DNA from: a virus
Virus record (IMG/VR): IMGVR_UViG_3300030333_004348
Location: 4,137-68,136 of that record
DNA length: 64,000 nt
Reading direction: 5' to 3' (one strand)
The position numbers and the translations under genes are program-made. Positions 9,764-60,600 of this stretch are shown here, one piece after another (position 1 is the stretch's first letter; each line of letters opens with the position of its first letter). The notes under the pieces are model-generated. The model made no database searches, was not told the origin of the DNA, and was given only the letters and a program-made list of their open reading frames with translations.

Positions 9764-12069
9764 TGTCAAATAATGCAGATTTATATAAGTCACTAGAAGA
9801 AATAGCTACAGCCGCTGGACAAGCAGAGCTAGATAGGCAATTAGACTATTTAAACCAAGGTCTAGATGATATTAGACGTCAGCAAGAGAGAGAAAGAAAA
9901 AATCTACCTTTAGAATTTTGTGAGGGTGCTAATGGCGAAATTCTAACACAATTTACTAATAAAGATTCTTGTGCACAAGGAGGCGGACTCTGGACTGACA
10001 GAAGAAATGTAAGAGAAAAATTAAAGGATAAATGGGAAAAGTCAAGAGATGCGCTGCCTAATTATTTAGATAGGGCAACTGACAAAATGAAAAAAGCCGC
10101 AGCTAGTGTAGTTGAAAGTAGTAATCCTAGAAATAAAACGGCAAGAAAAACAGGTTATATAAATATAGACTACGGTTCATTTAGAGAAGCGTGCGTAAAT
10201 GGGGATGAATCTATAGTTTTTAAAAATTATTCGCCATCTTTAAATATTTTAAGGTTGCCTAATAAATTATGGGGAGGTAAACGTTACACTAGAAGTCTTG
10301 AATCGGTAACTTATACCGAAGATGCTAATATGTTTTTGGGCCCTACAAAGGTCAGCATACAGCGAGCTATTACTTCTGATATGCCTAATCCTGATAATCC
10401 TAAAGATCAGATTGCTGCATTTACTATGGCTATTAAAAAAATGACCTGGGAAAATACTGATCCCAATGATAAATCTGTAGGCGATTTAACTGTAGAATTT
10501 TATACAATGCCTGGAAGTCAATCTGTTTTTCCTAATAATGATTTTAGTGCCTATATTCCTTTAGAATTAACTAATTCATCTTTTGATGATCAGACTATTC
10601 AGTTTGGCAGATATGTTTTTACGGGAGCTGCTTCTGTTGATTTTATGAGTTCTTTTCATCAAGCATGGAGATTTGACACTGTAAATAGACTTCAAGCTGA
10701 TGGAATTAATTTAACCGCAAAAATTATAGATGTTGCTAATGAAGAAATATTATCTAGAGAATTTTTCTGCTGTATATTTTTTGAAATCATAGCTGCTAGT
10801 CCTGAACTAAAAGAAGTACTAGGAGAAGATCCGGGACTAGATCCAACTGATCTTGGAAAACTAAAAATTAAAGCTATTGAAAAGAAAATTAAGAAAATTA
10901 AAAAAGATGAAGAGTGGGATAGTGATCCAAATAAAGTTGCAAAAGTAAATAGCTATGAACAAAAAATAGCTTACTACGAAGAGCACGGCTATAGTGTTGA
11001 AGATTTTTTAAATCAACAAAAAGAATGGATGCTAAAATTAAAAAATATTCTTGAAATTATAGCAGGATTATTGACAGGACAAGGATTTCAATTTGGATTC
11101 CCTGCGTTTGCGTTTAATATTCTTGAGATACTAATAAATAGTGTTTATGCTGTACTAATGATTGTCTTAGAAGAAATACAAGCACATGTTCTTCAAGAAT
11201 GTTATGCATGGGTAGCAGAACAAAGAAAAGAAAAAGAAGAAAGAGTAGAAGAAATTCTGGAGCATGAAGGTGTTTGTGTAGATGGAGAGCAATACACTAG
11301 CAGAACAACATGCCAAGAAGCAGGATTTATATGGGAGCCGGGGGCTACGTGGGAAACAGCAGCAATAAATTGTTTACCTTGGGAACAGATATTAATAGTA
11401 GTAATAGATTCTTTATTTGGAAATGATGGTTTGTTTAAGCATGTAAAGGGTTTTATAGAAAGAGTAAAAAATGATATGCTATTAAAAACTCAACAGTTAG
11501 AGTCTGATTCCTATGATATAAATGAACAATTAGAAAATAGTAAATACTTAAAATATATATTACAAGCACTTGACATACTAGATTGGTTATTAGATTTAAA
11601 TGTTGATGCGCTACAATTATGTAACATGTATAATAGAAATTTATCGATGTTAGGCCCTGATCACTACCAACAAGCAGTAGAAGATTCTTTAACAGGATCT
11701 CCAAATATGGGAGGACAGACACTTAATACGGGAGTAGATCAAGATGATCTAATAGGTAATCCAAATATTTTACAAGGAAATGTTCCTGGAGCTGGTGGAA
11801 ATCTTTCAGCAGGCGGTAGAGTGCCTTCTGACTACCAATCGTCCTCAAAGATTGACATAACTGGTAATATAGTCAACCCATTAGGTTTGCTTTTGTATCA
11901 AAATAATGATGATATTAAAAAGTTTTTTACTCAATATATGGGGCTTACTCCTGCAGAAGCAGAAGAAGCAGTGACTGGAGAAAAAAGGGGACAATGTATG
12001 AAAAAATTATCTGAGAGTGAAGCCCAACAATTAAAACAAATTCTTAATAATACGAGAATGGAGGAATAA
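9763..12069 (+). CDS. large hypothetical protein between terminase and portal
   Basis: 768 aa with hydrophobic helices and two copies of the Cys2/GxxW micro-module. Confidence 0.6.
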   Translation: MSNNADLYKSLEEIATAAGQAELDRQLDYLNQGLDDIRRQQERERKNLPLEFCEGANGEILTQFTNKDSCAQGGGLWTDRRNVREKLKDKWEKSRDALPNYLDRATDKMKKAAASVVESSNPRNKTARKTGYINIDYGSFREACVNGDESIVFKNYSPSLNILRLPNKLWGGKRYTRSLESVTYTEDANMFLGPTKVSIQRAITSDMPNPDNPKDQIAAFTMAIKKMTWENTDPNDKSVGDLTVEFYTMPGSQSVFPNNDFSAYIPLELTNSSFDDQTIQFGRYVFTGAASVDFMSSFHQAWRFDTVNRLQADGINLTAKIIDVANEEILSREFFCCIFFEIIAASPELKEVLGEDPGLDPTDLGKLKIKAIEKKIKKIKKDEEWDSDPNKVAKVNSYEQKIAYYEEHGYSVEDFLNQQKEWMLKLKNILEIIAGLLTGQGFQFGFPAFAFNILEILINSVYAVLMIVLEEIQAHVLQECYAWVAEQRKEKEERVEEILEHEGVCVDGEQYTSRTTCQEAGFIWEPGATWETAAINCLPWEQILIVVIDSLFGNDGLFKHVKGFIERVKNDMLLKTQQLESDSYDINEQLENSKYLKYILQALDILDWLLDLNVDALQLCNMYNRNLSMLGPDHYQQAVEDSLTGSPNMGGQTLNTGVDQDDLIGNPNILQGNVPGAGGNLSAGGRVPSDYQSSSKIDITGNIVNPLGLLLYQNNDDIKKFFTQYMGLTPAEAEEAVTGEKRGQCMKKLSESEAQQLKQILNNTRMEE

Positions 12070-13817: not shown

Positions 13818-13829
13818 GTGGGAGTATCA

Positions 13830-15528: not shown

Positions 15529-15530
15529 AT

Positions 15531-15540: not shown

Positions 15541-15563
15541 ACAGACAAATAGGAACGTATAAT

Positions 15564-16331: not shown

Positions 16332-16333
16332 AA

Positions 16334-17356
16334 ATGGCTAAGATTAATTTTACAGCAGGCGGTGTATCAAGAAAACTAAAAGCAACTCCTGCTAAATATA
16401 GACAGTCTCCCGGTAGACCTAACATTTCACAATCAGACGGGGTAAGACCTGCATTTCCATTAATGCCTTGGAAAGGTATGAATGGTGCTGGTTATGAAGA
16501 TGTATCTACTGGAGATCAAGTTGTAATACCAAAAGGCCGAATTGTTTCTGCTATCACTGCAAACGGTGGTGCGGATGTAATAGGCGATGGTTCTACTTAT
16601 TATGGTGTAGGCAAAGGCGTTATGGGATTAATAGTTCCAGCTAACGGTGGAGCTACAAGAGACGTTTCAGCAGAGTATAATGAAGCTGGTTGCTTAGCAG
16701 CTGGTTTAGTATGGGACGGTTCAGACTGTGCTACACTTACTCTAGATGCTAACGCACCTATCGGTGTTGTTGAACACGACGTTTTCATGGACGAAGCTGA
16801 TGGCGCATTAAACTACCAAAGTAGAAACAAAAACTGGGGAGTTCTTTCTCACCAGTTAATTAAAGTTCCTTACGTAGATGCAACAGCATGGAATGGTAAA
16901 AATGGATTAACAGACGACGCTGTCGATGATCCTGATTCAATGGGTACTGTAGGTGCAGTTTATAAAGCACTTGAGAAAAAATACTCATTCATGGTAAGCT
17001 CAGGTAAATCTGGTAAAGGTTTAGCTGGCGCTTTAATTGCTGCTGACAACTATGGAAACTATAAAGAAGTAACAACTGTAACAGCACAAAATGTAGGTAA
17101 ACTAATGGGTGTTGATTATAGATTCAATAAGGACTTACTAGACACAGTTCAATCTAAGTGGGAAGACGACGCAGGATATAGAACAGCAGGTACAGGTACT
17201 AAAGGTATACCTCAGTTCTTATATGATTTCGTTTACGATGCATTAGTAGCAGATTCTGGTTATACTGTTGACGCAGCTACTGTAGGTAACGATATATACA
17301 CAATGTGTGTAACTGACAAGATCTTTGGTGAAGCTTGGATTTTAATTAACGTATAA
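16334..17356 (+). CDS. head decoration / minor capsid protein, paralogue 1
   Basis: Upstream of the MCP; VVIPKGRIVSA and PIGVVEHDV; clearly homologous to the next gene. Confidence 0.65.
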   Translation: MAKINFTAGGVSRKLKATPAKYRQSPGRPNISQSDGVRPAFPLMPWKGMNGAGYEDVSTGDQVVIPKGRIVSAITANGGADVIGDGSTYYGVGKGVMGLIVPANGGATRDVSAEYNEAGCLAAGLVWDGSDCATLTLDANAPIGVVEHDVFMDEADGALNYQSRNKNWGVLSHQLIKVPYVDATAWNGKNGLTDDAVDDPDSMGTVGAVYKALEKKYSFMVSSGKSGKGLAGALIAADNYGNYKEVTTVTAQNVGKLMGVDYRFNKDLLDTVQSKWEDDAGYRTAGTGTKGIPQFLYDFVYDALVADSGYTVDAATVGNDIYTMCVTDKIFGEAWILINV

Positions 17357-17376: not shown

Positions 17377-18771
17377 ATGGCAAAGATTAATTTTACAAAT
17401 AATGCAGGCCCTAGTACTACTAGGAAAATGCAATCGACTCCTGCTAAATACAGAGAGTCAAAAGGTAGACCTAATATTAGTCAATCTGATGGTATTAGAC
17501 CTGCTTTTCCATTAATGCCGTTCGCTCACTTACCTGTTAGTTTTACAGATGTTACTACTACAGATGCTGTAGTAATACCTAAAGGTAGAATTGTATCTGC
17601 TATCACATCTAATGGCGGCGTTGACGCTGGCGGTGATATGGATGGATCTGTCTACTATGGTGTAGGTAAAGGCATAATGGGATTAATGGTTCCAGCTAAT
17701 GGTGGTGCTGCGAGAGACGTAACTTCACCAGTTGATGCTGCAACTAAAGAGATTGCTGCTAACTCGCCTATAGGTATTGTAGAGCATGATGTCTATCAAG
17801 ATATCAATGGTGACAACTTGAACTATGATATGAGAAATAAGAACTGGGGAGTTCTTTCACAACAGTTAATCAAAATACCTGCAGTAGACACTTATGAATT
17901 TGATAAATTCACAGGTGAAGTATCTGGTTTCGTACCGGTTACTGCTACAGGTACTGAAGGCACACAAGAAAATGTAGCAGGTTCAGTTGCGGCTGAAACT
18001 GTAGCATTTAATGCTGCTGCTGGATCAACTGCAGCATTCACTCCTGCAACTGGTTATTTAGCAGGTAGTTTTGATATCGTTTCTATAACAGTAGATGGTT
18101 TCATTCAAGACGCTACAGTAATTGCAAATTCTACAATGAATGATACCGGTGATATTGATATCGTTGGTGCTGAAGGTTGTTCAGACGCTGCTGGTACAAC
18201 AGAAGCTATCTGTACAGACGCAGATGGTATAAATGGTACTTGGGCTGCTTTAACAGGCAATCCTGTTAACAGAACTGTTTCAGCTACATACACATATGAC
18301 TTAGATAACGTAGGAACTGCGGCACCAACTGCGGCTCTAACTGGTTCTATGGGTTATACTGAATGTGAAAAGAAATTCTCATTTTTAACTTATAATAGTG
18401 AGGCTGGTGAAGGATTGGCAGGAATGCCAGTTGCACCAGATTTTTACGGCAATTTCAAAGAAGGCGCGGCTACTAAAGACGCTCAGACTGTAGGACTTCT
18501 AATGGGTATTGATTACCGTTTCGGTAAAGACATGTTAGATACAGTTCAGTCTAAGTGGGAAGACGATGCTGAATTTGCTACTGCTGGAACAAGAACAAAA
18601 GGTATACCTCAGTTCTTGTATGATTTCGCTTACGCAGCTTTAAACGGCTACGTAATGAAAAAAACCAGTACCTGGGATGCTGTATGGCCAGGTAAGGATG
18701 CTGCTGTTGTAATCAAAGATGCTGTAGATGCTGGCGTTTTTGGTGAGGCATGGATCCAAGTAAACATCTAA
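17377..18771 (+). CDS. head decoration / minor capsid protein, paralogue 2, with internal insertion domain
   Basis: Shares MAKINFT, GRPNISQSDG.RPAFPLMP, RNKNWGVLS, DTVQSKWEDDA, KGIPQFLYDF and FGEAWI with paralogue 1; has an extra ~120-aa Ala/Thr-rich insert. Confidence 0.65.
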   Translation: MAKINFTNNAGPSTTRKMQSTPAKYRESKGRPNISQSDGIRPAFPLMPFAHLPVSFTDVTTTDAVVIPKGRIVSAITSNGGVDAGGDMDGSVYYGVGKGIMGLMVPANGGAARDVTSPVDAATKEIAANSPIGIVEHDVYQDINGDNLNYDMRNKNWGVLSQQLIKIPAVDTYEFDKFTGEVSGFVPVTATGTEGTQENVAGSVAAETVAFNAAAGSTAAFTPATGYLAGSFDIVSITVDGFIQDATVIANSTMNDTGDIDIVGAEGCSDAAGTTEAICTDADGINGTWAALTGNPVNRTVSATYTYDLDNVGTAAPTAALTGSMGYTECEKKFSFLTYNSEAGEGLAGMPVAPDFYGNFKEGAATKDAQTVGLLMGIDYRFGKDMLDTVQSKWEDDAEFATAGTRTKGIPQFLYDFAYAALNGYVMKKTSTWDAVWPGKDAAVVIKDAVDAGVFGEAWIQVNI

Positions 18772-26160: not shown

Positions 26161-26172
26161 GGAGAAATTGAC

Positions 26173-26831: not shown

Positions 26832-29800
26832 ATGGCCAATCCTAATGAAATTATAGATCCGCAAACGCAGGAAAACTTAAAAAATCAGCAGGCAGAAGCT
26901 GAGGAAAGATCTAATCAGAATTTCAATATTGGAGGAGGTGGCGCAGCTGGTGATGTAGACACTGGAACATTCGGTCAGACATATACTCCTGCTCCCCCTA
27001 ATACTAATATTGCATACTCTGGTTCTGACTGTAAAGCTTTTATAGTTACTTATGGACAAGTAGCTAAAGACTCATTTATACCATTAAAAAACTTATCCGC
27101 TATTAGTTACTCTATTCATAGAGATAAATCTCCTGTAAGAAGTTTAGGAAGCTATGTTGCTACCGATTATACTAAAGGCACAAGAACAGTAGCTGGAAGT
27201 ATAGTTATAATAAACTTTGATAGGGCTGCTTTTTTTGAGCTAGTTAGTGGAGTTGATATCTATGGAGCTGCGGGACAGAATATAGAAGTGGCAGATAATA
27301 TTCCTGCATTTGATATTATGTTAGCCTTCTCTGAGGAAAATAAGGGAAGACATAGCGCTTTATGGACAGATGGGAAAATAGGTCCACCTAAGCCTGATAA
27401 TGCAGCTGACTTTTCATACATGTGGATACGTAATGTGCATTTTGTTGATGAAGGCTCAGTTACTGGAACTGAAGAAGCCTATTTAGAAACTACATTCCAA
27501 TACGTTGCAGAACATGTCGAGTACTTAAGACCTAATAATGTTAATATTGGAACTTCTCCTGTTGCAAATATTGCAAGTACTGTAGGAGGAAGTCCAAGTA
27601 CTACAACATATAATAGAGCTACCCCTCATAGACATTATACAGAGCAAAGAGATGAATTAGCAAACTGGGATACCGGTCAACAACAGATGAAGTTAATATT
27701 TGATAAAAAAGAAGTTGGAAATTTTGAAGCTTCTTTTGATTATACTATTAGTACTGTGTCTAATGCTGATGCTATTAAAACAGCGGGATCAGATCCTGCT
27801 GAATGGGTAAGACCTGATACTAATCTTATTTTTGTTGACGATGACGTCCCTGCTCATATGCTAGGAAACATGTCTAGTATAACAGAATTAACTGTAACAG
27901 GAATGCCTCAAGGAGGAACTGCAGAGGGTCCTGTTAATATTGTATATGAAAGTTTTCACCCAGATGCAGATATTAATAATAACAATATTATTCATATTAC
28001 TAATGCACATTTATTTCATGATTATGAAAGAAACTGTTGGCAAAAATTATGGGGATTAAATAAACCACCTGTATTTGGCAATAAATTCCAAGACGATCTA
28101 CATAATGTAGGTAGAGCAGAGTATGAAGAATTCGAAGAAATATTATATTACGATGGTGTAACGATGAATCCAGGTAGTGTAGAATTTACATTACAGGGTG
28201 AAGTAGATAGTAATGCTATTGTGGGATTTGCTAATGATGTAGATGAACATTATAAAGCTATAAGTAGTAAACGTCAACACCCAGTAACTTTAACTGCTGG
28301 AGTTAATCCAGGAGATCCAGGAAAAGCAACAGTAACTATTGATGAAGCAGATGTACAAGAAACTCTTACAGAGTCGTTTGAAATAGATCTTGAGCCTTAT
28401 ATCGAATCCTATCAAATAAGTAGATCATATATTAATAATTCTTTTGATAGAATTGATTTAGAAATGTGGATTTTACCAGACGACGGAGATCCTTCTGCTC
28501 TTACTACAGGGGCAGCTGCAATGCCTTATCGAGCAGATTTGGTGGATCTTCAAAACTCTACGACGGGTCCTGATACTAATCAATTACAATTTAAAGATTT
28601 TGAATTTTATACAACTCCACAGATAGCCCCGGATCATTGCGATAATGCGGGTTATACTAATCAGGTGGACTGTACTACTAATGGAGGGGCATGGACGACT
28701 GGACAGAATACTACAGGTAAGTTTACTATCTCAGTACCTCCTACTCCTTTAATAGACAAGAATGTTTCTGGTACTAGATCTGGTCCAGGAATATTAGGAG
28801 CTAATAAACAATTTATGGCAGATAAACCTGCAGCAGGACAAGATGTTATTGAAACTACATTAGGAGTAGGAGGACCTTCTTTAAATGAAGATCAAGTAGT
28901 TTTATCAGTTAAATCTCCAACAGGTGCAGATATATCTGGGTTCTTTAGTTTAACTAAACACGACGATGTATATGATGGTGATGGAGTTTTAGTTGACACT
29001 GAAGTAGAGATTTCAGGATATGCAGCAGAAATAACTGGTTATGAAGATAAAATTGTACAACCTAGTAGCAATACAGTATCATATACTCAAGATATAGGAA
29101 CATATACTTATTCATCTGAATCTAATATCCAAGATTTTGCTTTACAAGGTGATGCGGTTGATCATCAAATATCAGAAATAACTCAATTACTTTACGATTG
29201 GTCTGATACTGCTTATTTTCATCCGGAGTTAGTCCCAGAACAGGGATACTCTATTCAATATCAAGCAGGTACTAACAACTTTCAAGTAAGCGGTACAAGA
29301 GGTTGGACCTCAAAAGAACTAAGTCATCATTTAGGAAATATGGATAGTAGTCTAGTTCCTTTGACAGAACAATATCCTCTTGGAGCTGGTTATAGTGAGT
29401 TTTATGATTTTAAAGCAATGGGACAAAATAATGCTGTATATGTAGAAATATGCACAGTAGAGGACTACGTGATTGCTTCGGGAGTTAAACCAGTTACTTG
29501 GAGTAATTCTGCAGCCCATGTAGACCTACAGTCTTTTGGCATGTCATATAATAATGGTGGAAATTTTACTATAACCGACTTTAGTTATAATCCATGGATT
29601 GTATATCAAACATATAAAGTTAAAATTTATTATGAATACAAATATGTAGGAGATATTCCATTAGGAATTGATTATACTGCTGTAGATCCAGCTCCGCTGA
29701 CTACAACTATAGAACTAAATAATGCCGGTAATGACTCGTCAGCTGCTAGAGTAGTAAATGAAAGCAGTATCGAAGTATTTGTTACTGAAGGCAACACAGT

Positions 29801-34096: not shown

Positions 34097-34953
34097 TGTT
34101 TTTTTCTGGATCAAATTTATTAGTAAAGTTATATGGAGGCCCTTATCCATATCCTAAAGTTACAAGTACCTTTGTATTTCCTGTTTCAAAATTACAAGTT
34201 ACAATTGAACAAGGAGAGTTAAGATATTTAACAGCTGACGGTAGGGGAGTTAATAATAATCCCCAAGGATTTTGTTGGGATGATGCTACTAGCACATATA
34301 CTAATAAATATTTAAACGAAGTAGATTGTAATACTGCTGGATTAATTTGGAAACCTTATGTTACAGCTACTTCTGTTACAGATGTATCAACAGTAAAGTT
34401 AAATAATATACATCTTTCTATGGCATTACAAGAAATGTTAGATTATTATAAATCTAATAATGTTAATCGACAAGACTATGATGCATTATCTGATTGGGTA
34501 AATGAGGTTACATATCAAGCTTCTCTAAATAAAACATGGAGACCTAATGTAGGAAATCAAACCGGAGAGATATTGGATGCTGTTGCTATACAGTTTGGAT
34601 CTGAGCAAGCTTCATCTCCTATATACAACCCCGGTAACATGTTAATGGATACTCAAATGAGAGGAACTACAATGATTAATGGGGTAGTTAGTCTTAATTA
34701 CAAAGCAGATTGGAATAGAGATTTAATAGGGTTCGATGGTGGTCTTCCTATGAACTTAGAAGTCATTTACAATAAAGATGAGTTTGAACTTGAGGAAAAT
34801 CTAGAAGGAGCGGAGTATGAATGGGAAACAAACTCTTTTAATTACTTAATTCATGATGTTGAATTTATCGGAAGAAGTCATTCAACTACTCCTTCTCCTG
34901 AGAACGTCATAGAAAATTACCAATTCATAGCCAGGGCCCTTACACCTAAATAA
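34096..34953 (+). CDS. tail-tube-fold paralogue with N-proximal insertion
   Basis: FFSGSN, then a ~140-aa insert, then DAVAIQF..PIY..RGTTMINGVVSLN..YQFIAR. Confidence 0.65.
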   Translation: MFFSGSNLLVKLYGGPYPYPKVTSTFVFPVSKLQVTIEQGELRYLTADGRGVNNNPQGFCWDDATSTYTNKYLNEVDCNTAGLIWKPYVTATSVTDVSTVKLNNIHLSMALQEMLDYYKSNNVNRQDYDALSDWVNEVTYQASLNKTWRPNVGNQTGEILDAVAIQFGSEQASSPIYNPGNMLMDTQMRGTTMINGVVSLNYKADWNRDLIGFDGGLPMNLEVIYNKDEFELEENLEGAEYEWETNSFNYLIHDVEFIGRSHSTTPSPENVIENYQFIARALTPK

Positions 34954-51351: not shown

Positions 51352-51695
51352 TGAAGACTATTATTGAAATTACTCTACAACCCTTGCCATATGAACACAA
51401 TGTTGTTAATCTAGCTGGCTACCTACAGGCTGTTATTTCAGAAATAACAAATTCTGCAACAATAGTCGATATAAATGACTTTGATTTTACAGATAAAATG
51501 TCTATATTTAGGTCTATGCGTCAAGCATCTCCTACACATCAGAACTCAAGTTTGTCTAGATCTGGAATCACTATAGGTGGATCAAATTCTATGTCTCCTC
51601 ACTATCAAGCTTCTAGCTTGGTAAACACAGCCGCTGCACACAGAGGACATGGTTTTCCAATGAATACAAACAATAATCAAGGAAATAGAAATTAA
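51351..51695 (+). CDS. hypothetical protein
   Basis: 114 aa; coupled at both ends (TAGTG, TAATG). Confidence 0.55.
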   Translation: MKTIIEITLQPLPYEHNVVNLAGYLQAVISEITNSATIVDINDFDFTDKMSIFRSMRQASPTHQNSSLSRSGITIGGSNSMSPHYQASSLVNTAAAHRGHGFPMNTNNNQGNRN

Positions 51696-54600
51696 TGGCT
51701 GTTAATTTAAATACAAATTCTTTACTTGATTATTTAAAATCTATACCTGGGTTTAAAGATGCATGTTCTACCGCTACCTGTTTTGAAGAAAGAAAAGAAC
51801 TCTATGAACAATATTGTGATGACCTAGGATATCATAGTTGTGCAGATCCTAATGGGCAATACTACTACACAGGCCTAGCTTGGCAGAATACAAAACTTTT
51901 AGATTTATTAAAAACTCAAAGTCCTCCTTTTCATGAGACGTTTAAGTCTACTTCTAATTCGTCTAGTGCACAAGGAAATACTAGACATAAAAATGTATCC
52001 CCTTCTCAATTTACTAAAGAAGATTTATTTATTACATTGAGAAATTATATTGCAAATTCAGAAGGAGGTCCGGGAAGGTACGGAGGAGTAGATCAAACTT
52101 ATAACGATGGTAATATTATAGATGATTATCACTTAGGATATTTTCAAATATCTGGCAAAAATATAAATACTTATTTGAGATATTTGCAAAAATATATTGT
52201 CCAACCTGGAGCTACGCCTTCTCCTCAAGATATAAAATATCAAGAAGCTATTGATGAATGGCATAGTTTAATTTTTGAAAATGCATATGAAGAGCTTAAA
52301 TTTTCTATGGATGGAAATAAGGAGTGTTCTTTATTTCCAACAGTACTAAATGTACCTGAACAAACTTTTTTACACTGCCTACATATAGCAGATGCTGTAC
52401 ATGGTAAACCTTCTCACACTTTTGAAAATTTAGTTTTACAAAATATAACTGGAAAACATGGCTATTTGGGATCGAAAGGATCAGTACAACCCTGGTCTTT
52501 ATCAAATATTCATACTAATATATATGTAAATAATCCAAATTTAAAAGCAGTAACTGCTTTCGATTATTTACAATGGTCAGGAATAGATACTATTCCTAAA
52601 AAATGCACTACTCAAGAAGAATTTGATAAGATTTTTACTACAGGAGTAACTAGGAAAGCAGTATATGAAAGTGTAATATACCATGCCAAAAAAGCGTATA
52701 ACGACACACAAAGCAGATTACATAAGTACTTTCCTGAATCTGCTATTGATAATTATTTTTCACAAAAAAATCTAAATGATTTATATTTATGTTCTGAAAA
52801 ATATCAAATATATGGAATAGATACTTTATTTTCTAACATTAATCAAAATAATACAACATTAGCTACAGTAAATAATGTTGTTCCTTCTGCGAGCACAAGT
52901 TCATACAGCTCTCCGAATAAAGTAACCGCTGCAGCTCTAAGCACTGTTGTTAATGCAGATGTACAAAAAAGATATAGCGAAGTATCAGTAGATCCATTAT
53001 TATATAAATATGGAATAGGAGCGGAAGAAACCGGCTTAACTTATATCGGGGATATTCTAATGGCAGTACCTCCCGTATCTTTAAGATACTCAGAGCACAA
53101 CCAAAGTACAGCTATAGATACATTAAGAACGTCAGGTGATCCATTATTTACTTATAATAATACAATACCTAGAATTGATATGACATTAATGTTTAATGGA
53201 GCTAGGGCTATAAATGAACAACTGAGACCTTTAGTTGCTATGTTTCATCGCATGCCTTTTTCTACTATACAAAATCATAGTGTGTGGGATATGTGGATTG
53301 GTAGAAGAGAATCCTTTAATACAGATTTAAAAACTAATCCTGCTGGAAGTTTATTAAATAGATTTGCTCCTATACCAGTATATCTAGAAAGTATAAATGT
53401 ATCTACTATTCCAGGATTTCCGAATAGTGTTCAAGCACATATTTCGGTGGTAAGAATGAATAGATCGCCATATGGTGTTTCTGCTAGAATGTGGAAGTAT
53501 TGGGAAGACGCTATGGCAGAGACTAAACTAAAAACGGTAAGAACTGCTAGAGATTCTACTATTTGGAGTACAGATAGAGATGAAAAAAACGAAGTAGATA
53601 AAATTTATATTGTAGATTCGGCTATGAAAAACCATATAATTGAGCTAGAAGATGGAGCTAGCACAGGAAATAAAAATATGGATGAAACATTAACTACAAA
53701 ATATCCGCAAGAATCTGTTCCTTACAAATATCAATATAGAAACTTACTATGGGATGATGGATATCCTAATAATCTAGTTCTTTCAGGAAGTAATACTTTA
53801 GGTAAAAATATATATGGAAATAATAAAGACCCATTAATACATTGGCCTGTGTATAGAGAAGAGCATAATAGAGATTTATTTTTAACGTATAAAAGTGCTA
53901 GAAAATTTTCAGATAAACTTAGTATATTCAAACAAAGACTAAAGGAGTTAACTGAAAACTATAGAAAAATACAAACTCTAAGTGCTCAAATTAGCACTAT
54001 GAGTCTAACTGATCTTTTAGATGTGTATAAACCTATAACAGAAATGACTTTAAAGGATACTTCTCAACTATTAATTGATAGTATGTCCGCAGTTAAAGTT
54101 GGAAAAGACTTTTCAGATAATATAAATGCTGCATTTAAGAATATAGCTTTAGAATTAACTCAGGATAGTGCAGGAAATCAACTTCCTATATTTACAGATA
54201 TTGTTAATTATTGTGATAAATATCTAGACAGCAATGGTAATGTTATTAAAGATGAACAAACTTGTGCTGCTGAAGGTGGAACTTGGCAAACAAGCGGTAC
54301 GCCTGGTTTTAGAAGTCCGGTTCCTCCCTATGATTTTATTCCAGTACCCTTAGCCTCAACAGATGAAAATGATTTTATTTATGTGGATGCTAACGGAGAA
54401 ATAACAAATTCTTTTGAAGTATTTTTAGACTGGTTAAACGATGCTAATAGAGCAGTTGGTATCTGTGAAGAAGATCCTACCTATGTTACTAAAAAATCAT
54501 GTAAAGATGCAAAGTATACTTGGAATGCTCAACCAAATAGTGACGAAAAACGAATAGCTTTATGGGAAAAAAATAATGCTATATACAGCGCATTTTATGA

Positions 54601-57600
54601 TAATATGGTAAATGATCCTCTAGGTTTGTTAGGCTTAGAAGATATAGGATCTAAATGGAACTATGATACCGCAGGAATACAGTTATCTTGGATAACAGAT
54701 ACAGATGACTTACTTAGTTATAAAGAAGACATAGATTCTTTAGTAAAAGATGATCAGCATAAACCTACTAAAAACAATAGGGCATCGTTTCCGTATTTTT
54801 ATCATTTTCAATCCGTAGTACAATCAGTAAATTATAGTTTTACAAATCAAGTTGTTCCTTTATTTACTGCCTCTTCAAATCTGCCAAGTTATCAACATAT
54901 GGGTATTTCAAATCCTACTGTAAGTATTGTTTTAAGGACTAGGGATGAAAGAATACACAAAGCTTTAACAGATATGAGAGAAACCGTACAAGAAATAGGA
55001 AATCAAACATTAGCAGGAAATACAAAACTAGTTGGGTTGGGAACTGTAGATGTTAGCGGAAATATATTAGGACATTCTTCAGATAGAAAAGATAAACGAA
55101 ATCAAGCTTTAAATTTACCAGGAAGTTCCGGGTCTCTTTCTGGAAATTTATTAAATTCTTTAGGATTTAGCCAAAGTAGTGTCCAGAACTTAACCTCAAG
55201 AACTTTAGAAGGTTTTCCCGGTTGGTGGGAAATAAGTTTAGATTTAATAGCTGACACTCAAAATATTAGAATTATAGAAAATTTAAGTGCTGTTACTGTA
55301 GAAAAAATACCAGATGGAATAAACAGTTTAATGGACTCTGTATTTCCAGCTTATAAAGCAAATTGGGGATTACTTACACTGTATCAAAATGCTGCAAATA
55401 AAGAAGAATTTTTAAAAGATAAGCTAAAGAGACTAGATGAAATAAAAGCAGAACGTGAAGCTGTTGAAAAACGAGTAGAGGACCTTCCTAACACTATTTG
55501 GTATAAGTACACAGATTTAGGAATCTGTCAAGATTGGGGCAGAGCAGCTAGGGGATGGAATTACGACTCAGACTTTGATGAGCAACCAGTTAGAGATGAC
55601 TACTACAATGGCTCAAGAATAATAGATAAAATAACTAAAGAAGAATACAATGCATGTGCTAAAGAAGGAATTAATTGTGAAGGATTAAACCTAGGTCAAT
55701 CTTGTGATGCAATGGATTATAACTGCCAGAGAACAATGCATGAAGCATTGGAAATGCCTGGATTAACTATAGACTGGGATGCATATGATAGAGCAATTGA
55801 AAATAGGGAAGATCCTAATCAACCATACGCTCCAAGCCCTTGGTTAGTGGCAGCAAAGTTTGATGACTCACCTGAAGATGCAGGAGGTGAACCTAGTTAC
55901 TGTGCTGCAACAGACGAATATGGTGTTGGTTTTTTTGAATGTTCGATGGCAGGTAGAATACATCATCCAGAAGGAGATAATGATACTGATGCATGTCACG
56001 CTATAAAAGATCAATATATGCAAATAGATGCGACAACAGATCCTATTCGTAATAAAGATACTTTTGATTTTATGGAAGTAGACCTGTGGGATGTATGTAA
56101 AGATAAAAGCGGAAACGAAGTTACAGATGGATTTCGGTGGTTACATAATGGATCTAAACTAGGTAATTACTATCCAAACGGTATATGTTGGGGAGGAGAT
56201 GTAAATGGTTGGGCTGGAGATACACCAACAGAATGCGAAAGCGGCGATGGAAGTAAGTACTGGGTAGGAACGAGTACTTTAGTGCATGATCCTAATGAGC
56301 CAGATAAAGGCTCATCTGGAGGGTATAAACTTGTTTGCCCTAATGGAGATAAAATAAGTACTTTTTTTGAGCCTCAGCTCATACGTCAGATTGATATAAC
56401 AGGATTTCCAATAATACAAAGTCAAGCTATATGTGAAGATCCATGGCAAGATGGAAGTGGAAGAGACGCTGGTCTGTGGATTCCTGCTTCGACTCCTGGA
56501 ATATGTACTCTTGACAAGTTAGAAGATGTTGCAATTAAATATACTGAAGACGATAATAATTGGGGCAATTTCCAAGCGTATACCTATCATAACTTTAGTA
56601 GCTTGACTCCTTTAGTAGGAGTTAATAGTTTTACTGAATGCTGTCAAGCGAATAACAGTACTAATTCAGCCAAAGAAGCCGGAAAATGTTATGCTTACTT
56701 TAATACTTATACAGAACGAAAAGCACCAGAAACTATTTTTCCTATGACCCAGACTAAAATTACTGATGAGATGGCAGAAAAGCAAAGAAAAACCTGCCTA
56801 GAATGGATAGGATTAGGAGTTGATGCTAAGGTTGGAACAGGGCCTAAACCTAATAGAAAATTAATTAATAATGAATGGACACAAGAGTGGTTCGAATGGG
56901 GAACTTCTCACAACGATTCTCTATTCTACAGTAAACCGGATTATATAACTGTTGATAGAGGGGATGTTGCCTTAAAACAAGAACTAGAAAACAGTTTAAG
57001 AGATTTAACTGAAGAAGAAGTAGCAGTTAATGCAGATATAAATGCTATAAACCAACAAGTATCAAGTATAGTTGATCATTTAATTCTAGGAGAAGGGGAA
57101 GCATTAGTTATTTATATAAATCCAGAATTAGATGATATATTAATACAAATAACTGGTAATAAGTTAACTTCTGCTCAGCTTTACGGTATAGCAGAAGATA
57201 GAGGAGATTTATATCAAAAATTATTCCAACCTGTATTAGATGAAATGGTTCTTTGGCTACAAAGATTAAAGGGTTGGGAACTCGATAAAATGAAAAATTA
57301 TCCTAACTGGACAGATGAACATCCTAGAGAGTTTCAATTAACAGCTACTTTAGCTACGTATTATATAGACTTTTTAAAAAATTGTATCTATACTATTTCG
57401 GGAATAGCTAACAGTGACTATGGAAAAGATTTATTAACAACTCCAGGAAAAGCGGTTTCTTTATTTCCAGGTTACTCTAGAGCAGCTGTAGAAGCTCAAA
57501 AGCTTGCAGTAGATCAACCTAGTGTTATACTACAAAGTATAATTCTAGGCAGTCAGCTACGTGTAGTATTCTATAATCTATTAAGAAGATCCGATTTTAG

Positions 57601-60600
57601 AACGTTCTTAGATGAGCAGGTAGTACCAAGAAATAAAGCTATAAAAACATTGAAAGACGCACTTAAAAGAGAGCTACTTTCAATACAAGTTGGAACAGCT
57701 CAAATTGTATATAATGTTAGTGCGCCAAATGTAGAAGAAGCTAAAAAATCTATAGAAAATGCGATTTACTTGATAGAAAATAGTGAAGAGTTTTTAGACA
57801 CTTCAAATGTTTCAACTAGTAATGAGTATCAAGATTTTATTAAGAATTTAAATTCAAAGATACAGGTAAATCATCCTGATCTAGGCTTGCCTAGAGAGTA
57901 TCTAAATGAAACAGGCCACGCAGCAGTTGGTCCAGGCTATCCTTTTGTTGATGATGACTTAGATCTAGAATTGATTGAAATGTCAAAGATGGCTGATAAT
58001 GTTAAAATGCAAACCTTCTCACAACTTGCGGCCATTACTTCTGGAAAATTTTCAGATTACTATCTGGATTTAGTGCAATATCTAGGGCACTATAAGGGTA
58101 CTTGCTACATAAGTAATATTACTGCTGAATCATGTGCTTCAATGATAGATGGAACTCATAAAGATGTTCAAGAAGGTGGTAAATGGGATATGTTCGCGTC
58201 AGGTAGGTGGGACGGTTCTAGAGACGATGGAGTCCAAGATACTCCGGGATGGTGCATAGTAGAAACATTAGTAGACCAAGAACCTTTAAATCATTTTTCT
58301 TGTGAGATTGCCGGATGGCAATTTGATTATGACTCCTTTGTTCCCAAAGGAGATGGGAAGGATGTTAATAACTTAAATAAATTATTAAAAGGAAGCTTTA
58401 CAGGAGATGATAACTTAGACTTTGTATTGCCGGCAGCAATAAGTAATGCAGATCGGAATGCTCTGGATATTCCAAAAATGCTAATGTCTTTTAAAGAACT
58501 AGCAAAAAGAGAAAAAGAAATAGCTGCAAATTTACCAAAGGGAGCTGACACGTTTGCAGGAAGCACCCAAGCTGCTCCAACTAAAAAAGCTATAATGGAT
58601 TTAATGGCGACTACTGCTATGCTGGATTATTTATTGATGCTTATGTTCGGTGCTGCTTATATGGAAAATTTAAATCTTGATCCAGAAAATAAAACATTCC
58701 CTTCTAATCAATTAGAAATTGATATTAAAAATTTAGCTGAAAAAACCTTAAAGGAAATGAAGAATTTAAAAATGGATACTACAAAGTATTCAACTTTATT
58801 AGCGCAGACTATGGCTCTTCCTTATTCTGAAGATTTAGATATGAGTGCAAAAGGACACGATGTAGCAGTAGCTTTATCTCAACAAATATTAGAGAAAAGA
58901 AAAGCTGCTGCGGATATTGCAACAATTTCAGCAACAGGAAACTATCAGGCATTTTTAAATTATTTTGGAATAGGGAATATAGAAAGTGTTCAAAGATCTT
59001 ATGAATTAAAAAGTAAATTTAATAATTATTTACAAAACAAAGACAGAGCATCTATGGATAGAGCATTTCCTGCTTATAAGCTTTTCTTTATTGAACAAGA
59101 TCAATATTCTTGGCAAGCTTTTGATGACTTTTATACTTATGATGCTGTAAATGAAATAACTATTGTAGACAGTAAACATGCTGCTAGTAAGACTGCGTCT
59201 ATTAAATTATCAAATGTTACTAATAAACTAACAAATGATATAGGTATAGGTATTATGAATGAAGGGGCTGCAATAACTCCTGGAGCATTATTAAGATTAA
59301 AAGTTGGCACTCCCGTAATGCTAATGATTGGATATGGAGCAGATTATAGGCAATTAAGAATGGTATTTAGAGGAGCCGTTACAGAAATGAAAACAGGTCC
59401 TATCCTTGAGTTAACTTGCCAATCTTGGGGAGCAGGTTTACTAAATTCTGTAGGGGCAGGAGAAGGAGTTGCGTATAGCACTTTCTCAGGTCCTACTACG
59501 TTAGGAGCTTCTGTTATTGATATATTAGCACAGACTCCCGGCTTGAGTGGATTAGGAAGATGGGAAATGAGGGATGAAAGCTTAAATAATCCTAATAATA
59601 TAGCTGAAAGTACTTTAAAAAATGCATGGTGGGCTAGGGCGTTAAATACATTTAGTGGAACAATGGGTGATTATATTAAACTAGATAATAATATAAGTGA
59701 TATTATTGGTACTTTTTCTGGAGATAGTGGATTGCCTACTACAGCAGATGATATAGCAGAAGGAATAAGAGAAAATAATGTAATATATAAATCTGTTGGT
59801 AATTCTTTGTTTGACAATATTATTATTAATGATAAAAATCCTAATGGTTATGGGTTCTATAACTTTTATAGTAGAGGATTAGGATATCTGTCAGATGTTT
59901 ATAGTAAAAAATCGTTTAAATGGTTTGTTGTTAGGCAGACTTGTTGGGATGCACTTCATGAAGTAGCCTTATTTTTAGGTGATTATATAATAACAACAAG
60001 ACCTTATAATGAAGGTAATGATATACTTAACCAAGCACCAAGAGACACATTGTACTTTGGTCCTAGAGAAGGTATGTACAGGGCTAAGTCATTTGTTCCA
60101 AAAATAAACGCTGAGTATGAAATGCAAAAGTTAGCAGAACTTGTAAAATCATCTGCTATGCCTACTAAACAGATTTTACAAGATATTCCAGGTAAAAGTG
60201 GTCCAGGTATTTATACTACTATAGTGGATAAAAATGCTCTAAAGCTTATGAGTGAAGAGGCGAGAAACAAAGTATATGAAGACGACTGGGATCTTGAAAA
60301 TAAATTACTAGATTTTGGTAAAACAGCCCTTAGTCGTATACTAGACCACCATATTGATACTGGAGATATGCCTGGTGGAGGTCAATATCCTAGTTTAAAC
60401 AATAATTATTTTACTAGAATACAAGAGTATACTGGAACAAATTGTGACGGTGATCCAAATAATTATGGACCTGTATTTTATGGTAAAGTTTACAACAATA
60501 AAAATCTTATAAATAACTTTGCTCACTCATTATTTTTAAATGGATTTTACCACACTGCAATTCACTTTGATCAGTCAACAATTGTTAGAAGGCCTGAGCG

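What the first reader, a model, noticed from the sequence alone, without database searches (positions are those of the whole stretch)
9919..58325. A ~20-aa two-cysteine module recurs in at least six different structural-module proteins
Seen: the pattern (G/x)xC-x(5-15)-[TN]-x3-C-x3-G-[G/x]-x-W recurs at 9919 (CEGANGEILTQFTNKDSCAQGGGLW), 11275 (CVDGEQYTSRTTCQEAGFIW), ~16676 (YNEAGCLAAGLVWDGSDC), 18178 (CSDAAGTTEAICTDADGINGTW), 28638 (CDNAGYTNQVDCTTNGGAW), 30471 (CSDTQFTNENECLCGTGGVW), 31500 (CEDSTIDNVDDCIQGGFVW), 34273 (CWDD..YLNEVDCNTAGLIW), 54212 (CDKY..KDEQTCAAEGGTW), 54464 (CEEDPTYVTKKSCKDAKYTW) and 56186, with weaker copies to ~58320. The hosts are otherwise unrelated folds: pre-portal protein, both head decoration paralogues, two tube paralogues and the hub. 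The two decoration paralogues carry it at different positions, and it is absent from the other two tube paralogues, which suggests independent insertions. Inference: a mobile, probably disulfide-stapled micro-domain displayed across the virion (adhesion, ion binding, cross-linking, or a docking tag for a shared partner), spread by some dedicated or recombinational mechanism.
Basis: partly seen in the sequence, partly recalled or inferred. Interest (0 to 1): 0.82.

Follow-up and report, generated by a model that had tools for sequence, protein, structure and literature searches.

The report
Widespread two-cysteine plug-in mini-domain in phage
The repeated two-cysteine motif is real: it is a tiny, probably disulfide-stapled mini-domain that has been slotted many times into the virion proteins of this uncultured jumbo phage, and it belongs to a large, so far unnamed family that also occurs in phage T4's baseplate protein gp8 and in bacterial pilin-like proteins.

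Summary
Nine full copies in four virion-module proteins (768-aa pre-portal, 1683-aa tube-domain fusion, 285-aa protein, 3938-aa hub) and one half copy in the 340-aa MCP-adjacent paralogue pass leave-one-protein-out and fixed C/C/W-skeleton controls. The copy in the 464-aa paralogue is marginal; those at 56186 and ~58253-58320 fail.

It is not private to this phage. A profile of the copies finds 173 protein clusters at E<=1e-3 among 1.84 billion, many with 4-19 tandem copies. The rule is C-x10(-21)-C-x6-W. Hosts include phage tail, baseplate and decoration proteins and prepilin-type bacterial proteins. No Pfam, NCBIfam or PHROG model covers it. The best PDB match is T4 gp8 residues 141-163.

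Orthologue alignments show presence or absence at discrete sites, several as clean indels: four sites in the pre-portal family alone. AlphaFold2 folds one module confidently, pLDDT 84.5, with its ends paired. The helix cysteine almost always has a partner cysteine. No DNA-level mobile signature was found.

Verdict: a new member of a known kind, a promiscuous accessory mini-domain on virions. Function is inferred, not shown.

The parts
9763..12069 (+). 768-aa protein between large terminase and portal ('pre-portal'); host of two module copies
   Evidence: ORF list. No Pfam or PHROG family. Orthologues in 6 related viral contigs.
9919..9993 (+). Module copy, aa 53-77, with a long loop (C-x16-C-x6-W). 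Site A, present in all 6 pre-portal orthologues.
   Evidence: 30.9 bits held out; 0/1000 decoys.
11275..11334 (+). Module copy, aa 505-524 (C-x11-C-x6-W). Site D, present in 4 of 6 orthologues; a 24-31-aa gap in the other two.
   Evidence: 21.2 bits; 0/1000.
16676..16729 (+). Half module in the 340-aa MCP-adjacent paralogue: helix Cys, x6, W, with the partner Cys downstream. A clean 15-aa insert relative to the 464-aa paralogue.
   Evidence: 12.5 bits, 0/1000 decoys. The same downstream-partner variant is seen in external proteins.
18178..18243 (+). Doubtful copy in the 464-aa paralogue (C-x10-C-x9-W). It lies at the end of a ~130-aa insert.
   Evidence: 1.8 bits held out; 4.9 bits, 13/1000 decoys.
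26832..31883 (+). 1683-aa protein: N-terminal tail-tube-like domain plus a ~1450-aa extension. Host of three copies.
   Evidence: 27% identity to the 208-aa tube protein at 26140-26766. Orthologues.
28638..28694 (+). Module copy, aa 603-621 (C-x10-C-x6-W). The divergent orthologue has a Cys-free segment of similar length at this position.
   Evidence: 20.5 bits; 0/1000. This copy was the query of the single-module fold.
30471..30530 (+). Module copy, aa 1214-1233 (C-x10-C-x7-W, with an extra Cys), in a four-Cys patch. The region is a ~25-aa gap in the divergent orthologue.
   Evidence: 18.5 bits; 16.6 bits, 0/1000.
31500..31556 (+). Module copy, aa 1557-1575 (C-x10-C-x6-W). A clean ~24-aa gap in the divergent orthologue.
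   Evidence: 22.2 bits; 0/1000.
34273..34350 (+). Module copy, aa 60-85 of the 285-aa protein (34096-34953), with a long loop (C-x17-C-x6-W). Conserved in both homologues found, at 64-69% identity.
   Evidence: 22.1 bits; 0/1000. It is the best-predicted part of an otherwise poor model.
51695..63511 (+). 3938-aa giant protein ('hub') with an endolysin-like region at aa 3316-3612. Host of two copies.
   Evidence: phrog_20474, E 7.7e-37. Orthologues.
54212..54286 (+). Module copy, aa 840-864 (C-x16-C-x6-W). Kept in orthologues down to ~40% identity; absent from a 30%-identity orthologue.
   Evidence: 9.4 bits; 20 and 62 of 1000 decoys with the within-window model; 20.5 bits, 0/1000 with the external model.
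54464..54523 (+). Module copy, aa 924-943 (C-x11-C-x6-W). Kept in orthologues down to ~40% identity; a 13-aa gap with no Cys in the 30%-identity orthologue.
   Evidence: 12.8 bits; 7 and 5 of 1000 decoys with the within-window model; 28.9 bits, 0/1000 with the external model.
56186..56263 (+). Claimed copy, rejected (C-x15-C-x8-W). It lies in the Cys-rich part of the hub.
   Evidence: Not found by either HMM.: -1.3 bits, 860/1000 decoys score as well.
58253..58318 (+). Claimed weak copy, not supported (C-x15-C-x4-W).
   Evidence: 2.4 bits, 48/1000 decoys score as well.

Best explanation
The motif is a ~20-26-residue, autonomously folding mini-domain. It is a member of a large, uncurated family with this consensus, taken from 231 external copies: G-x-C-S-[DN]-P-x-Y-T-[TD]-x-x-x-C-E-A-[AN]-G-G-T-W-T.

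Predicted anatomy. A short strand carries the first Cys. A variable loop follows, then a one-and-a-half-turn helix carrying the second Cys, capped by G-G. A short strand carrying the invariant Trp pairs back with the first strand. The two chain ends therefore lie side by side, which is the geometry that lets a unit be spliced into a surface loop or linker without disturbing the host fold.

Inferred chemistry. The two Cys form an intramodule disulfide once the protein is outside the reducing cytoplasm: in the free virion in oxic water, or in the periplasm or on the surface for the bacterial pilin-like hosts. The disulfide staples the helix onto the strand pair, with Tyr and Trp as a miniature core.

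In this phage lineage. The unit has been gained, and in places lost, repeatedly at different sites of unrelated virion proteins, and then diverges quickly. Its most likely role is structural: a cheap, compact, oxidation-locked knob that rigidifies and protects exposed loops and linkers of a very large virion.

How it spreads. Ordinary short-segment duplication or illegitimate recombination, possibly from tandem arrays of the module in fibre-like proteins. There is no sign of a dedicated mobile element.

Shown: the motif is real and family-wide, the sites are polymorphic as indels, the Cys come in pairs, the fold is confidently predicted, and there is no DNA-level signature.
Inferred: the disulfide itself, surface exposure, the stabilising role and the donor pool.
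For: 1. Non-chance recurrence in the window.

2. A family outside the phage.
- The profile A2 (19 copies) finds 173 proteins at E<=1e-3 and 26 at E<=1e-10 among 1,835,955,588 representatives, with up to 19 stretches per protein.
- The canonical C-x10-C-x6-W occurs 349 times in 120 of the 150 listed proteins, against a mean of 2.8 in 100 shuffles.
- C-x6-W holds in 278 of 279 full copies and C-x10-C in 196 of 279.

3. A solved exemplar.
- The best of 177,635 distinct PDB sequences is T4 gp8 (1N7Z), residues 141-163, E 0.082. It scores 17.2 bits with the model built from external copies.
- Reciprocal hits run the other way. Pfam Phage-Gp8 positions 125-168 hit module-array proteins at E 0.0028 and 0.075. 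phrog_977 positions 136-169 hit them at E 2.1e-5 and 7.5e-4.
- The segment is conserved in all 5 aligned T4-like gp8 proteins, down to 42% identity.

4. Polymorphic sites, several as clean indels.
- The pre-portal family has four sites. One is in 6 of 6 orthologues, one in 2 of 6, one in 1 of 6 and one in 4 of 6; the others show gaps of 24-31 aa.
- In the 1683-aa protein, the site at aa 1557 is a ~24-aa gap and the patch at aa 1214 a ~25-aa gap in the 1566-aa orthologue, which has only 4 Cys.
- The 340-aa paralogue has a 15-aa insert relative to the 464-aa one.
- The hub copies are kept at ~40% identity and lost at 30% identity in a protein with 3 Cys in 3725 aa. Orthologues carry extra copies elsewhere.

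5. Obligate Cys pairing.
- Of 476 helix-half motifs in the 150 proteins, 442 have an upstream Cys. 29 of the other 34 have a downstream Cys. 5 have none.
- In the window's virion proteins, 63 of 102 Cys have a partner 4-25 aa away, against 32.2 +/- 5.8 (max 50) in 500 shuffles.

6. Fold. AlphaFold2 on one 31-aa module with 49 aligned copies gives mean pLDDT 84.5, with 14 of 31 residues at 90 or more. Residues 6-7 bridge to 25-26 and the helix is 15-20. In the poor 285-aa model (pLDDT 36.2) the module is the best part, at 57-71.

7. Host proteins are virion or extracytoplasmic. Of 101 scanned, 11 carry N_methyl. Others match pilin, distal tail, tail fibre, gp8 and decoration PHROGs, and ZnuA, PKD, fn3 and VWA. 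Fourteen Methylobacter-type loci encode a prepilin-like protein with ~10 tandem copies.

8. Modules evolve faster than their hosts: 91/174 against 4452/6500 identical positions, Fisher p 1.5e-5.

9. Site-specific or lineage-restricted copies score closest to the consensus: 37.3 bits for the copy unique to L031, 43.5 for the L004 extra copy, 37.1 for the P0156 extra copy.

10. Precedent for functional disulfides in virions: phage Milano (PMC10811340, abstract read).
Against: - No coordinates were available, so the Cys-Cys distance was never measured, neither in the models nor in T4 gp8. The disulfide is inferred.
- The T4 gp8 match is weak by E-value (0.082). AlphaFold2 was trained on structures that include gp8, so the confident module fold is not fully independent of it.
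- Foldseek found no PDB match for the 31-aa model.
- Phage proteins fold in a reducing cytoplasm, and no thiol oxidase was seen among the ORFs scanned.
- At aa 603 of the 1683-aa protein the divergent orthologue has a Cys-free segment of similar length rather than a gap, so not every site is a clean indel.
- The hub modules are not faster-evolving than the rest of the hub (0.71 against 0.65).
- Gain and loss cannot be told apart for sites shared by whole sub-lineages.
- Some of the 173 hits may be Cys-rich false positives, for example cytochrome c7 or EGF-like proteins.
- One 15-nt word is shared by two module regions. It exceeds the control 95th percentile (12) but not the control maximum (16).
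Confidence: 0.62

Rival explanations
1. The module and fold are the same, but the main role is binding rather than stabilisation. It would act as a small adhesin (glycan or host-surface contact) or as a common docking tag for one partner protein, displayed on head, tail and hub. This would parallel the Ig-like accessory domains of phage virions.
For: - Interior residues vary fast while the C/C/W scaffold is fixed: 0.52 against 0.68 identity. That pattern fits a binding loop on a rigid scaffold.
- The loop length is variable, x10 to x21.
- Hosts include tail fibres, distal tail proteins and pilin-like proteins, which are classic adhesive structures.
Against: - No ligand, partner or binding-site conservation was identified.
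- The conserved positions are those expected for folding: Cys, Gly-Gly, Tyr and Trp.
- In T4 gp8 the segment lies in an internal baseplate wedge protein that contacts gp6, gp7 and gp10 and is not a receptor binder (PMC3004832, passages).
- A single shared docking partner is hard to square with 23-38% identity to the first copy of the alignment.
Confidence: 0.2
2. The cysteines form intermolecular disulfides that cross-link neighbouring virion subunits. This would be a covalent network or redox latch, as in phage Milano, rather than an intramodule staple.
For: - Disulfide networks across all tail components are documented in phage Milano (PMC10811340, abstract).
- The copies lie in proteins of several virion substructures.
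Against: - Cys come as local pairs with fixed spacing, and a partner Cys is almost always present within the module or just after it (471 of 476). This argues for an internal bond.
- Tandem arrays in monomeric pilin-like proteins and the confident single-chain fold with paired ends need no second subunit.
Confidence: 0.07
3. The module is a small metal-binding site. Two thiolates plus the conserved acidic residues would form a beta-beta-alpha zinc-finger-like unit rather than a disulfide unit.
For: - The strand-strand-helix arrangement resembles a beta-beta-alpha finger.
- One array protein gave a weak hit to a TFIIIA C2H2 model, E 0.036.
- D/N at position 3 and E at position 13 are common.
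Against: - There are only two Cys, and no His column is conserved as a ligand (H reaches only 12% at the aromatic position 6).
- The D and E positions are only 52% and 48% conserved.
- The hosts are extracytoplasmic or extracellular, where Cys2 sites are usually oxidised.
Confidence: 0.05
4. There is no shared module. The resemblance would come from chance, composition, or independent convergence of ancestral loops in each fold.
For: - The motif is short.
- Three claimed copies fail the controls or only marginally pass them.
- At aa 603 the orthologous segment exists without Cys.
Against: - Shuffle, leave-one-out and fixed-skeleton controls all reject chance for 9 full copies and the half copy.
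- The profile retrieves hundreds of copies elsewhere with the same spacing rule.
- Clean indels occur at several sites.
Confidence: 0.03

Closest known systems
Residues 141-163 of bacteriophage T4 baseplate wedge protein gp8 (PDB 1N7Z, 5IV5; Pfam PF09215 Phage-Gp8)
   Same: - Same pattern: G-x-C-S-x(8)...C-x3-G-G-x-W-T-P with C-x10-C and C-x6-W.
- It is the top PDB hit of the module profile.
- Reciprocal Pfam and PHROG hits fall on that segment.
- It is conserved in all 5 aligned T4-like gp8 proteins.
   Different: - The window's host proteins are not gp8 homologues; none matches PF09215.
- In gp8 the segment is a fixed, ancient part of one protein. Here it is a multi-copy, site-polymorphic insert.
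- In the passages seen (PMC3004832) the gp8 segment is not singled out as a module, and whether its cysteines are bonded is not stated.
Ig-like and other accessory domains added to phage structural proteins (recalled: Fraser et al. 2006, not read here)
   Same: Promiscuous, non-essential-looking small domains found on head, tail and fibre proteins of unrelated phages. They are gained and lost between close relatives and are presumed to be surface-exposed.
   Different: The module is four to five times smaller (~22 aa against ~90 aa). It depends on a Cys pair, has a different fold, and can sit inside loops because its ends are adjacent. It also forms tandem arrays.
Small disulfide-stabilised extracellular repeats (EGF-like, thrombospondin-type and similar)
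   Same: Short Cys-defined units used singly or in tandem in extracellular proteins. The scaffold is conserved and the loops are variable.
   Different: The module has only one Cys pair, where EGF has three. It has an invariant Trp at fixed spacing and occurs in bacteria and phages. No Pfam EGF model covers the copies as a family: only 1 member each of the 101 array proteins matched EGF models.
Disulfide network of Agrobacterium phage Milano (PMC10811340)
   Same: Cysteines of virion proteins are used for covalent stabilisation outside the cell.
   Different: The Milano bonds are intersubunit cross-links at specific interfaces, not a recurrent portable motif (abstract only).

Membership tests
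Two-Cys 'CSDPxYTT...C...GGxW' mini-domain family (uncurated; defined here by profile A2 and the external-copy model) | Second Cys followed by exactly six residues and then Trp (C-x6-W) | tested here: met
   - 278 of 279 external full copies obey it.
- 8 of the 9 full window copies and the half copy obey it.
- The copy at 30471 has x7.
- The rejected or doubtful copies have x4, x8 or x9.
Two-Cys 'CSDPxYTT...C...GGxW' mini-domain family (uncurated; defined here by profile A2 and the external-copy model) | A partner Cys 10-21 residues upstream, or failing that just downstream of the Trp | tested here: met
   - External proteins: 442 upstream plus 29 downstream of 476 motifs.
- Window: the 9 full copies have an upstream partner at x10-x17.
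- The copy at 16676 has the downstream variant.
Two-Cys 'CSDPxYTT...C...GGxW' mini-domain family (uncurated; defined here by profile A2 and the external-copy model) | Profile score above decoys that keep C, C and W fixed, i.e. information beyond the skeleton | tested here: met
   - 0 of 1000 decoys reach the real score for 9 full copies and the half copy.
- This does not hold for the copies at 18178, 56186 and 58253.
Two-Cys 'CSDPxYTT...C...GGxW' mini-domain family (uncurated; defined here by profile A2 and the external-copy model) | Intramodule disulfide | not testable with these tools
   No coordinates are returned for the models or for PDB entries. It is inferred only from the pairing statistics.
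T4 gp8 family (Pfam PF09215 Phage-Gp8; phrog_977) | Whole-protein match to the gp8 profile | tested here: not met
   None of the 6 host proteins matches PF09215 at E<=0.1 or phrog_977 at E<=0.001. Only the module resembles gp8 residues 141-163.
Beta-beta-alpha (C2H2-type) zinc finger | Two Cys plus two His (or four ligands) at conserved spacing | tested here: not met
   The column frequencies of 231 copies show no conserved His ligand and no third or fourth Cys.
Mobile DNA element (MITE-like insert, homing element or similar) | Conserved DNA termini, target-site duplications or near-identical DNA copies | tested here: not met
   - No flanking direct repeat of 6 nt or more at 8 of 9 sites; the ninth has one 6-nt word.
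- The longest word shared between module regions is 15 nt, against a control 95th percentile of 12 and a maximum of 16.
Any curated Pfam-A, NCBIfam or PHROG repeat family | A library model that matches the repeat in most array proteins | tested here: not met
   - Pfam on 101 array proteins: the most frequent family is N_methyl (11 members), and none covers the repeat.
- PHROGs on the same 101 proteins: at most 5 members per family.
- NCBIfam on 10 proteins: nothing on the repeat.

The most novel reading that the evidence does not exclude
A previously unrecognised ~22-residue disulfide-stapled 'plug-in' domain family runs through the phage world. T4 gp8 residues 141-163 would be its overlooked structural prototype. 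The module is still being copied into new loop sites of virion proteins. The site-specific or lineage-restricted copies are the ones closest to the family consensus, as if drawn from a shared donor pool such as tandem arrays in fibre proteins. Because it can only lock after the particle leaves the reducing cytoplasm, it could act as an oxidation-triggered maturation or hardening step for virions in oxic water. Lineages would either adopt it wholesale or avoid it altogether; sister lineages have nearly Cys-free virion proteins.
Probability: 0.3. Interest if true: 0.7.

Novelty: new member of a known kind. Interest (0 to 1): 0.55.

Why it matters
- **A new domain family.** It would add a very small domain family to the catalogue. 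The family has a solved example and hundreds of members, and Pfam, NCBIfam and PHROGs currently leave it blank.
- **A possible general solution for decorating proteins.** A unit with adjacent termini and a single staple may be how phages and some bacteria decorate or harden exposed loops and build thin extracellular arrays.
- **Virion stability in oxic water.** The sharp contrast between Cys-rich and nearly Cys-free sister lineages offers a natural experiment on how disulfides contribute to virion stability.
- **A practical scaffold.** A 20-residue, insertion-tolerant, self-folding scaffold with a variable loop is attractive for display or engineering in laboratory phages such as T4.

Tried and rejected
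- **Chance or composition:** rejected by shuffles, leave-one-protein-out HMMs and fixed-skeleton decoys.
- **Copies at 56186 and 58253-58320, and other Cys pairs tested** (hub aa 2137, and aa 1382 and 1586 of the 1683-aa protein): not supported as module copies. The copy at 18178 is marginal.
- **Known-family assignment of the host proteins:** Pfam and PHROGs gave nothing relevant.
- **AlphaFold2 of the whole 285-aa protein** with 3 sequences: too poor to use beyond the module (pLDDT 36.2).
- **Foldseek of the 31-aa model against the PDB:** no match. The pdb_via_wide library was not on the machine.
- **ESM Atlas with a four-copy protein:** no usable hit.
- **tblastn of two array proteins (P0007, P0005) against isolate phages:** no match. 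The low-complexity filter may be the cause.
- **Viral-contig search for hub orthologues:** none. They were found through the protein database instead.
- **Exact-consensus DNA pattern in viral contigs:** only 2 stretches, so strict consensus copies are rare. One stretch yielded a useful extra pre-portal orthologue.
- **Sample of 300 genomes of the class of the Methylobacter centre:** only the centre itself matched at E<=1e-4. One further genome could not be scored. The module was therefore not found in those searched, which does not show absence.
- **Thiol oxidase or other redox enzyme** among 10 upstream and small ORFs: none.
- **Literature:** five keyword searches found no description of this motif. 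They are narrow and cannot show that none exists. Supplementary files were not consulted.

Full report
**What the window is**

The window is all but the first 4,136 bases of a 68,136-base viral record. It is AT-rich (32-39% G+C) and encodes one long + strand block of virion genes:
- large terminase, 7424-9763
- a 768-aa protein, 9763-12069
- portal, 12069-13817
- major capsid protein, 18916-20265
- tail sheath, 23693-26059
- a tube-like protein, 26140-26766
- a 1683-aa protein whose N-terminus is a paralogue of the tube protein (27% identity)
- three giant ORFs of 2447, 2641 and 3938 aa

The portal is 31-33% identical to those of Bacillus phage 0305phi8-36 and Moorella phage MTATph1. Closer relatives are uncultured IMG/VR contigs, with portals at 67-90% identity. 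One homologue of the 285-aa protein carries a Tara source label. This is therefore an uncultured myophage distantly related to the 0305phi8-36 group, probably marine.

Every quoted peptide is present at its coordinate. Cysteine is rare, at 0.65% of 20,848 residues. The strict pattern occurs 6 times, against 0.003 expected from 300 shuffles.

An HMM built from nine copies is circular for its own members, so I ran three further controls.
- **Leave-one-protein-out.** Held-out copies of the pre-portal, 1683-aa and 285-aa proteins scored 18.5-30.9 bits and the hub copies 9.4-12.8. The shuffled six-frame maxima were 5.7-9.9. The copy in the 464-aa protein scored 1.8.
- **Fixed C/C/W skeleton, within-window model.** Decoys kept C, C and W in place with all else randomised or permuted. 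For the six copies in the pre-portal, 1683-aa and 285-aa proteins, 0 of 1000 random-residue decoys reached the real score. The hub copies were weaker under this small model: 20 and 62 of 1000 for 54212, and 7 and 5 of 1000 for 54464.
- **Fixed skeleton, model built from proteins outside this clade.** 0 of 1000 decoys reached the real score for both hub copies, for the copy at 30471 and for the half copy at 16676. The copy at 18178 was marginal (13 of 1000). The copy at 58253 was weak (48 of 1000). The copy at 56186 failed (860 of 1000).

The result is nine full copies in four proteins, one half copy in a fifth protein and one doubtful copy in a sixth.

**The module is not private to this phage**

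A profile of 19 copies, from the window and its IMG/VR relatives (A2), was searched against 1.84 billion representative proteins. It returned 173 proteins at E<=1e-3 and 26 at E<=1e-10, with up to 19 matched stretches per protein.

In the 150 listed proteins:
- The canonical C-x10-C-x6-W occurs 349 times in 120 proteins, against a mean of 2.8 in shuffles.
- Among 279 full copies the C-to-W spacing is six in 278. The C-to-C spacer is ten in 196 and otherwise runs up to 21.
- The consensus of 231 canonical copies is G-x-C-S-[DN]-P-x-Y-T-[TD]-x-x-x-C-E-A-[AN]-G-G-T-W-T.
- The commonest repeat periods are 23-25 residues.

Host proteins are virion or extracytoplasmic:
- Of 101 proteins of 800 aa or less that were scanned, 11 carry the prepilin N-terminal methylation motif.
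- Others match PHROGs for pilin, distal tail protein, tail fibre, tail protein, baseplate wedge gp8 and head decoration.
- Others match Pfam ZnuA, PKD, fn3, VWA and Cna_B.
- A few, such as cytochrome c7 and EGF-like proteins, may be Cys-rich false positives.
- One prepilin-like protein with about ten tandem copies has homologues at 14 loci, 13 titled Methylobacter and one an uncultured gammaproteobacterium; they include a complete chromosome and two scaffold-level draft assemblies.
- The module is patchy in cells. In a sample of 300 genomes of that class, only the centre genome matched at E<=1e-4.

No Pfam-A, NCBIfam or PHROG model covers the repeat.

**A solved example**

Searching the profile against all PDB sequences puts T4 baseplate wedge protein gp8 (1N7Z and 10 further entries) first, at residues 141-163. 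A second T4-like wedge protein is also listed.
- The E-value is weak (0.082), but the match obeys every rule of the family.
- It scores 17.2 bits with the external model.
- It is reciprocated. Pfam Phage-Gp8 positions 125-168 and phrog_977 positions 136-169 hit module-array proteins.
- The segment is conserved in gp8 of T4, Acinetobacter phage Acj9, Aeromonas phage AS-zj, Klebsiella phage Olmo and a Vibrio schizoT4 phage at 42% identity.
- The passages I read of the T4 tail review (PMC3004832) do not single this segment out and do not say whether its cysteines are bonded.

**Inserted or ancestral?**

*Pre-portal family, six orthologues.* There are four module sites.
- Site A (window aa 53) is present in all six.
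- Site B is present in two, L004 and L031. It is a 24-aa gap in the other four.
- Site C is present only in L031. It is a clean ~30-aa insert relative to its closest relative, L004.
- Site D (window aa 505) is present in four. It is a 24-31-aa gap in L004 and L031.

*1683-aa protein against its 1566-aa orthologue, which has only four Cys.*
- The copy at aa 1557 is a ~24-aa gap.
- The four-Cys patch at aa 1214 is a ~25-aa gap.
- At aa 603 there is a Cys-free segment of similar length, so this site is not a clean indel.

*The two MCP-adjacent paralogues, 61% identical.* The 340-aa protein has a clean 15-aa insert that is the half module.

*The hub.*
- Both copies persist in orthologues down to ~40% identity.
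- Both are missing from a 30%-identity orthologue with three Cys in 3725 residues.
- Two orthologues carry strong extra copies at other positions.

*The 285-aa protein.* The copy is conserved in the two homologues found, at 64-69% identity. Its paralogue at 33563-34096 aligns only with the C-terminal part, so nothing can be said about insertion there.

Several copies are therefore discrete additions or losses rather than core parts of the folds. Parsimony favours gain at least for site C. Copies restricted to one lineage score nearest the family consensus, at 37-43 bits. The universally conserved site A has a stretched loop and scores lower in the relatives (8.3-17.1 bits).

**How it probably works**

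- **Fold.** AlphaFold2 on one 31-residue module with 49 aligned copies, taken from the window, viral relatives and Methylobacter loci by reference (A4), gives mean pLDDT 84.5. The residues around the first Cys bridge to the W-T residues, and a helix carries the second Cys. The poor whole-protein model of the 285-aa protein shows the same strand-strand-helix-strand pattern, and the module is its only confident part.
- **Adjacent ends.** The paired ends explain why the unit is tolerated inside loops.
- **Alternative partner Cys.** The paired ends also explain the variant in which the partner Cys sits just after the Trp instead of before the helix. Either flanking strand can reach the helix Cys.
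- **Obligate pairing.** Of 476 helix-half motifs, 442 have the upstream Cys. 29 of the remaining 34 have a downstream Cys. In the window's virion proteins, 63 of 102 Cys have a partner 4-25 residues away, against 32.2 +/- 5.8 in shuffles.
- **Inference.** An intramodule disulfide forms outside the cytoplasm. I could not measure any S-S distance, so this is an inference.
- **Divergence.** Module interiors diverge faster than their hosts in three of four proteins: overall 91/174 against 4452/6500 identical positions, p 1.5e-5. This fits exposure on the surface. It is equally compatible with a binding role, which I keep as the main rival.
- **Precedent.** Disulfides do matter in virions, as shown for phage Milano (PMC10811340, abstract).

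**How it spreads**

- Module regions have no flanking direct repeats.
- They share no long DNA words beyond one 15-nt stretch that encodes the same five residues in two copies. The control 95th percentile is 12 nt and the control maximum 16.
- Their G+C content is unremarkable.
- The copies are only 23-38% identical to the first copy of the alignment in protein.

Nothing points to a dedicated mobile element. Short-segment duplication or illegitimate recombination, followed by rapid divergence, is the economical reading.

**Comparison with what is known, and novelty**

- The closest known instance is the gp8 segment. The host proteins here are not gp8 homologues.
- In behaviour the module resembles the Ig-like accessory domains of phage structural proteins (recalled, not read) and small Cys-defined extracellular repeats. 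It differs in being far smaller, in having a single Cys pair and an invariant Trp, and in having adjacent termini.
- Five keyword searches of the paper library found no description of it. This is weak evidence of absence.
- I rate it a new member of a known kind, namely promiscuous accessory mini-domains of virions and surface proteins.
- Interest is moderate: the phenomenon is real, general and unannotated, but its function is not established.

**Limits**

- The search of earlier findings, the listing of cluster members and the wide structural library were unavailable.
- The taxa and habitats of most of the 173 proteins are therefore unknown.
- No structure coordinates could be inspected.

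Noticed in passing
window 26832-31883 (and L006:2752-7788; G001 orthologue in L009): A tail-tube-like N-terminal domain (aa ~56-233, 27% identical to the neighbouring 208-aa tube protein) is fused to a ~1450-aa extension. It is conserved as proteins of 1679 and 1566 aa in relatives. This is an unusual architecture for a tube paralogue.
   Followed up: partly
window 36083-63511: Three consecutive giant ORFs of 2447, 2641 and 3938 aa have very different cysteine use: 3, 0 and 40 Cys. The hub's Cys are concentrated at aa ~1278-1701.
   Followed up: no
L009/L010 (G001), P0158, P0159 versus the window: Sister lineages have almost Cys-free virion proteins: 4 Cys in 1566 aa, 3 in 3725 aa and 2 in 2820 aa. 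They also have few or no module copies outside the pre-portal protein. Cys and module use looks like a lineage-level choice.
   Followed up: partly
window 30975-31010 (aa 1382-1393 of the 1683-aa protein): A different 12-residue Cys-bounded loop is a clean insert relative to the G001 orthologue. It does not match the module profile, so other disulfide-loop inserts exist as well.
   Followed up: partly
window 17377-18771 versus 16334-17356: The two MCP-adjacent paralogues are 61% identical. The 464-aa one carries a ~130-aa insert of unknown nature. Neither protein matches any Pfam or PHROG family, so the label 'decoration protein' is unverified.
   Followed up: partly
L011-L024 (14 bacterial loci, 13 titled Methylobacter): Prepilin-type proteins of ~500-800 aa consist largely of about ten tandem copies of the module. 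These are an uncharacterised pilin-like family in methanotrophs.
   Followed up: partly
window 2383-2982 and 13818-14177: A ClpP-like protease gene (Pfam CLP_protease, E 5.7e-26) lies upstream of the terminase. A 119-aa, 9-Cys ORF with a Com-type zinc ribbon lies directly after the portal gene.
   Followed up: no
L007/L008 (G002:7433-30877): In a relative, large proteins of 859, 925 and 2169 aa upstream of the terminase region carry weak module copies (7.9-12.6 bits). The window ends before any equivalents could appear.
   Followed up: partly
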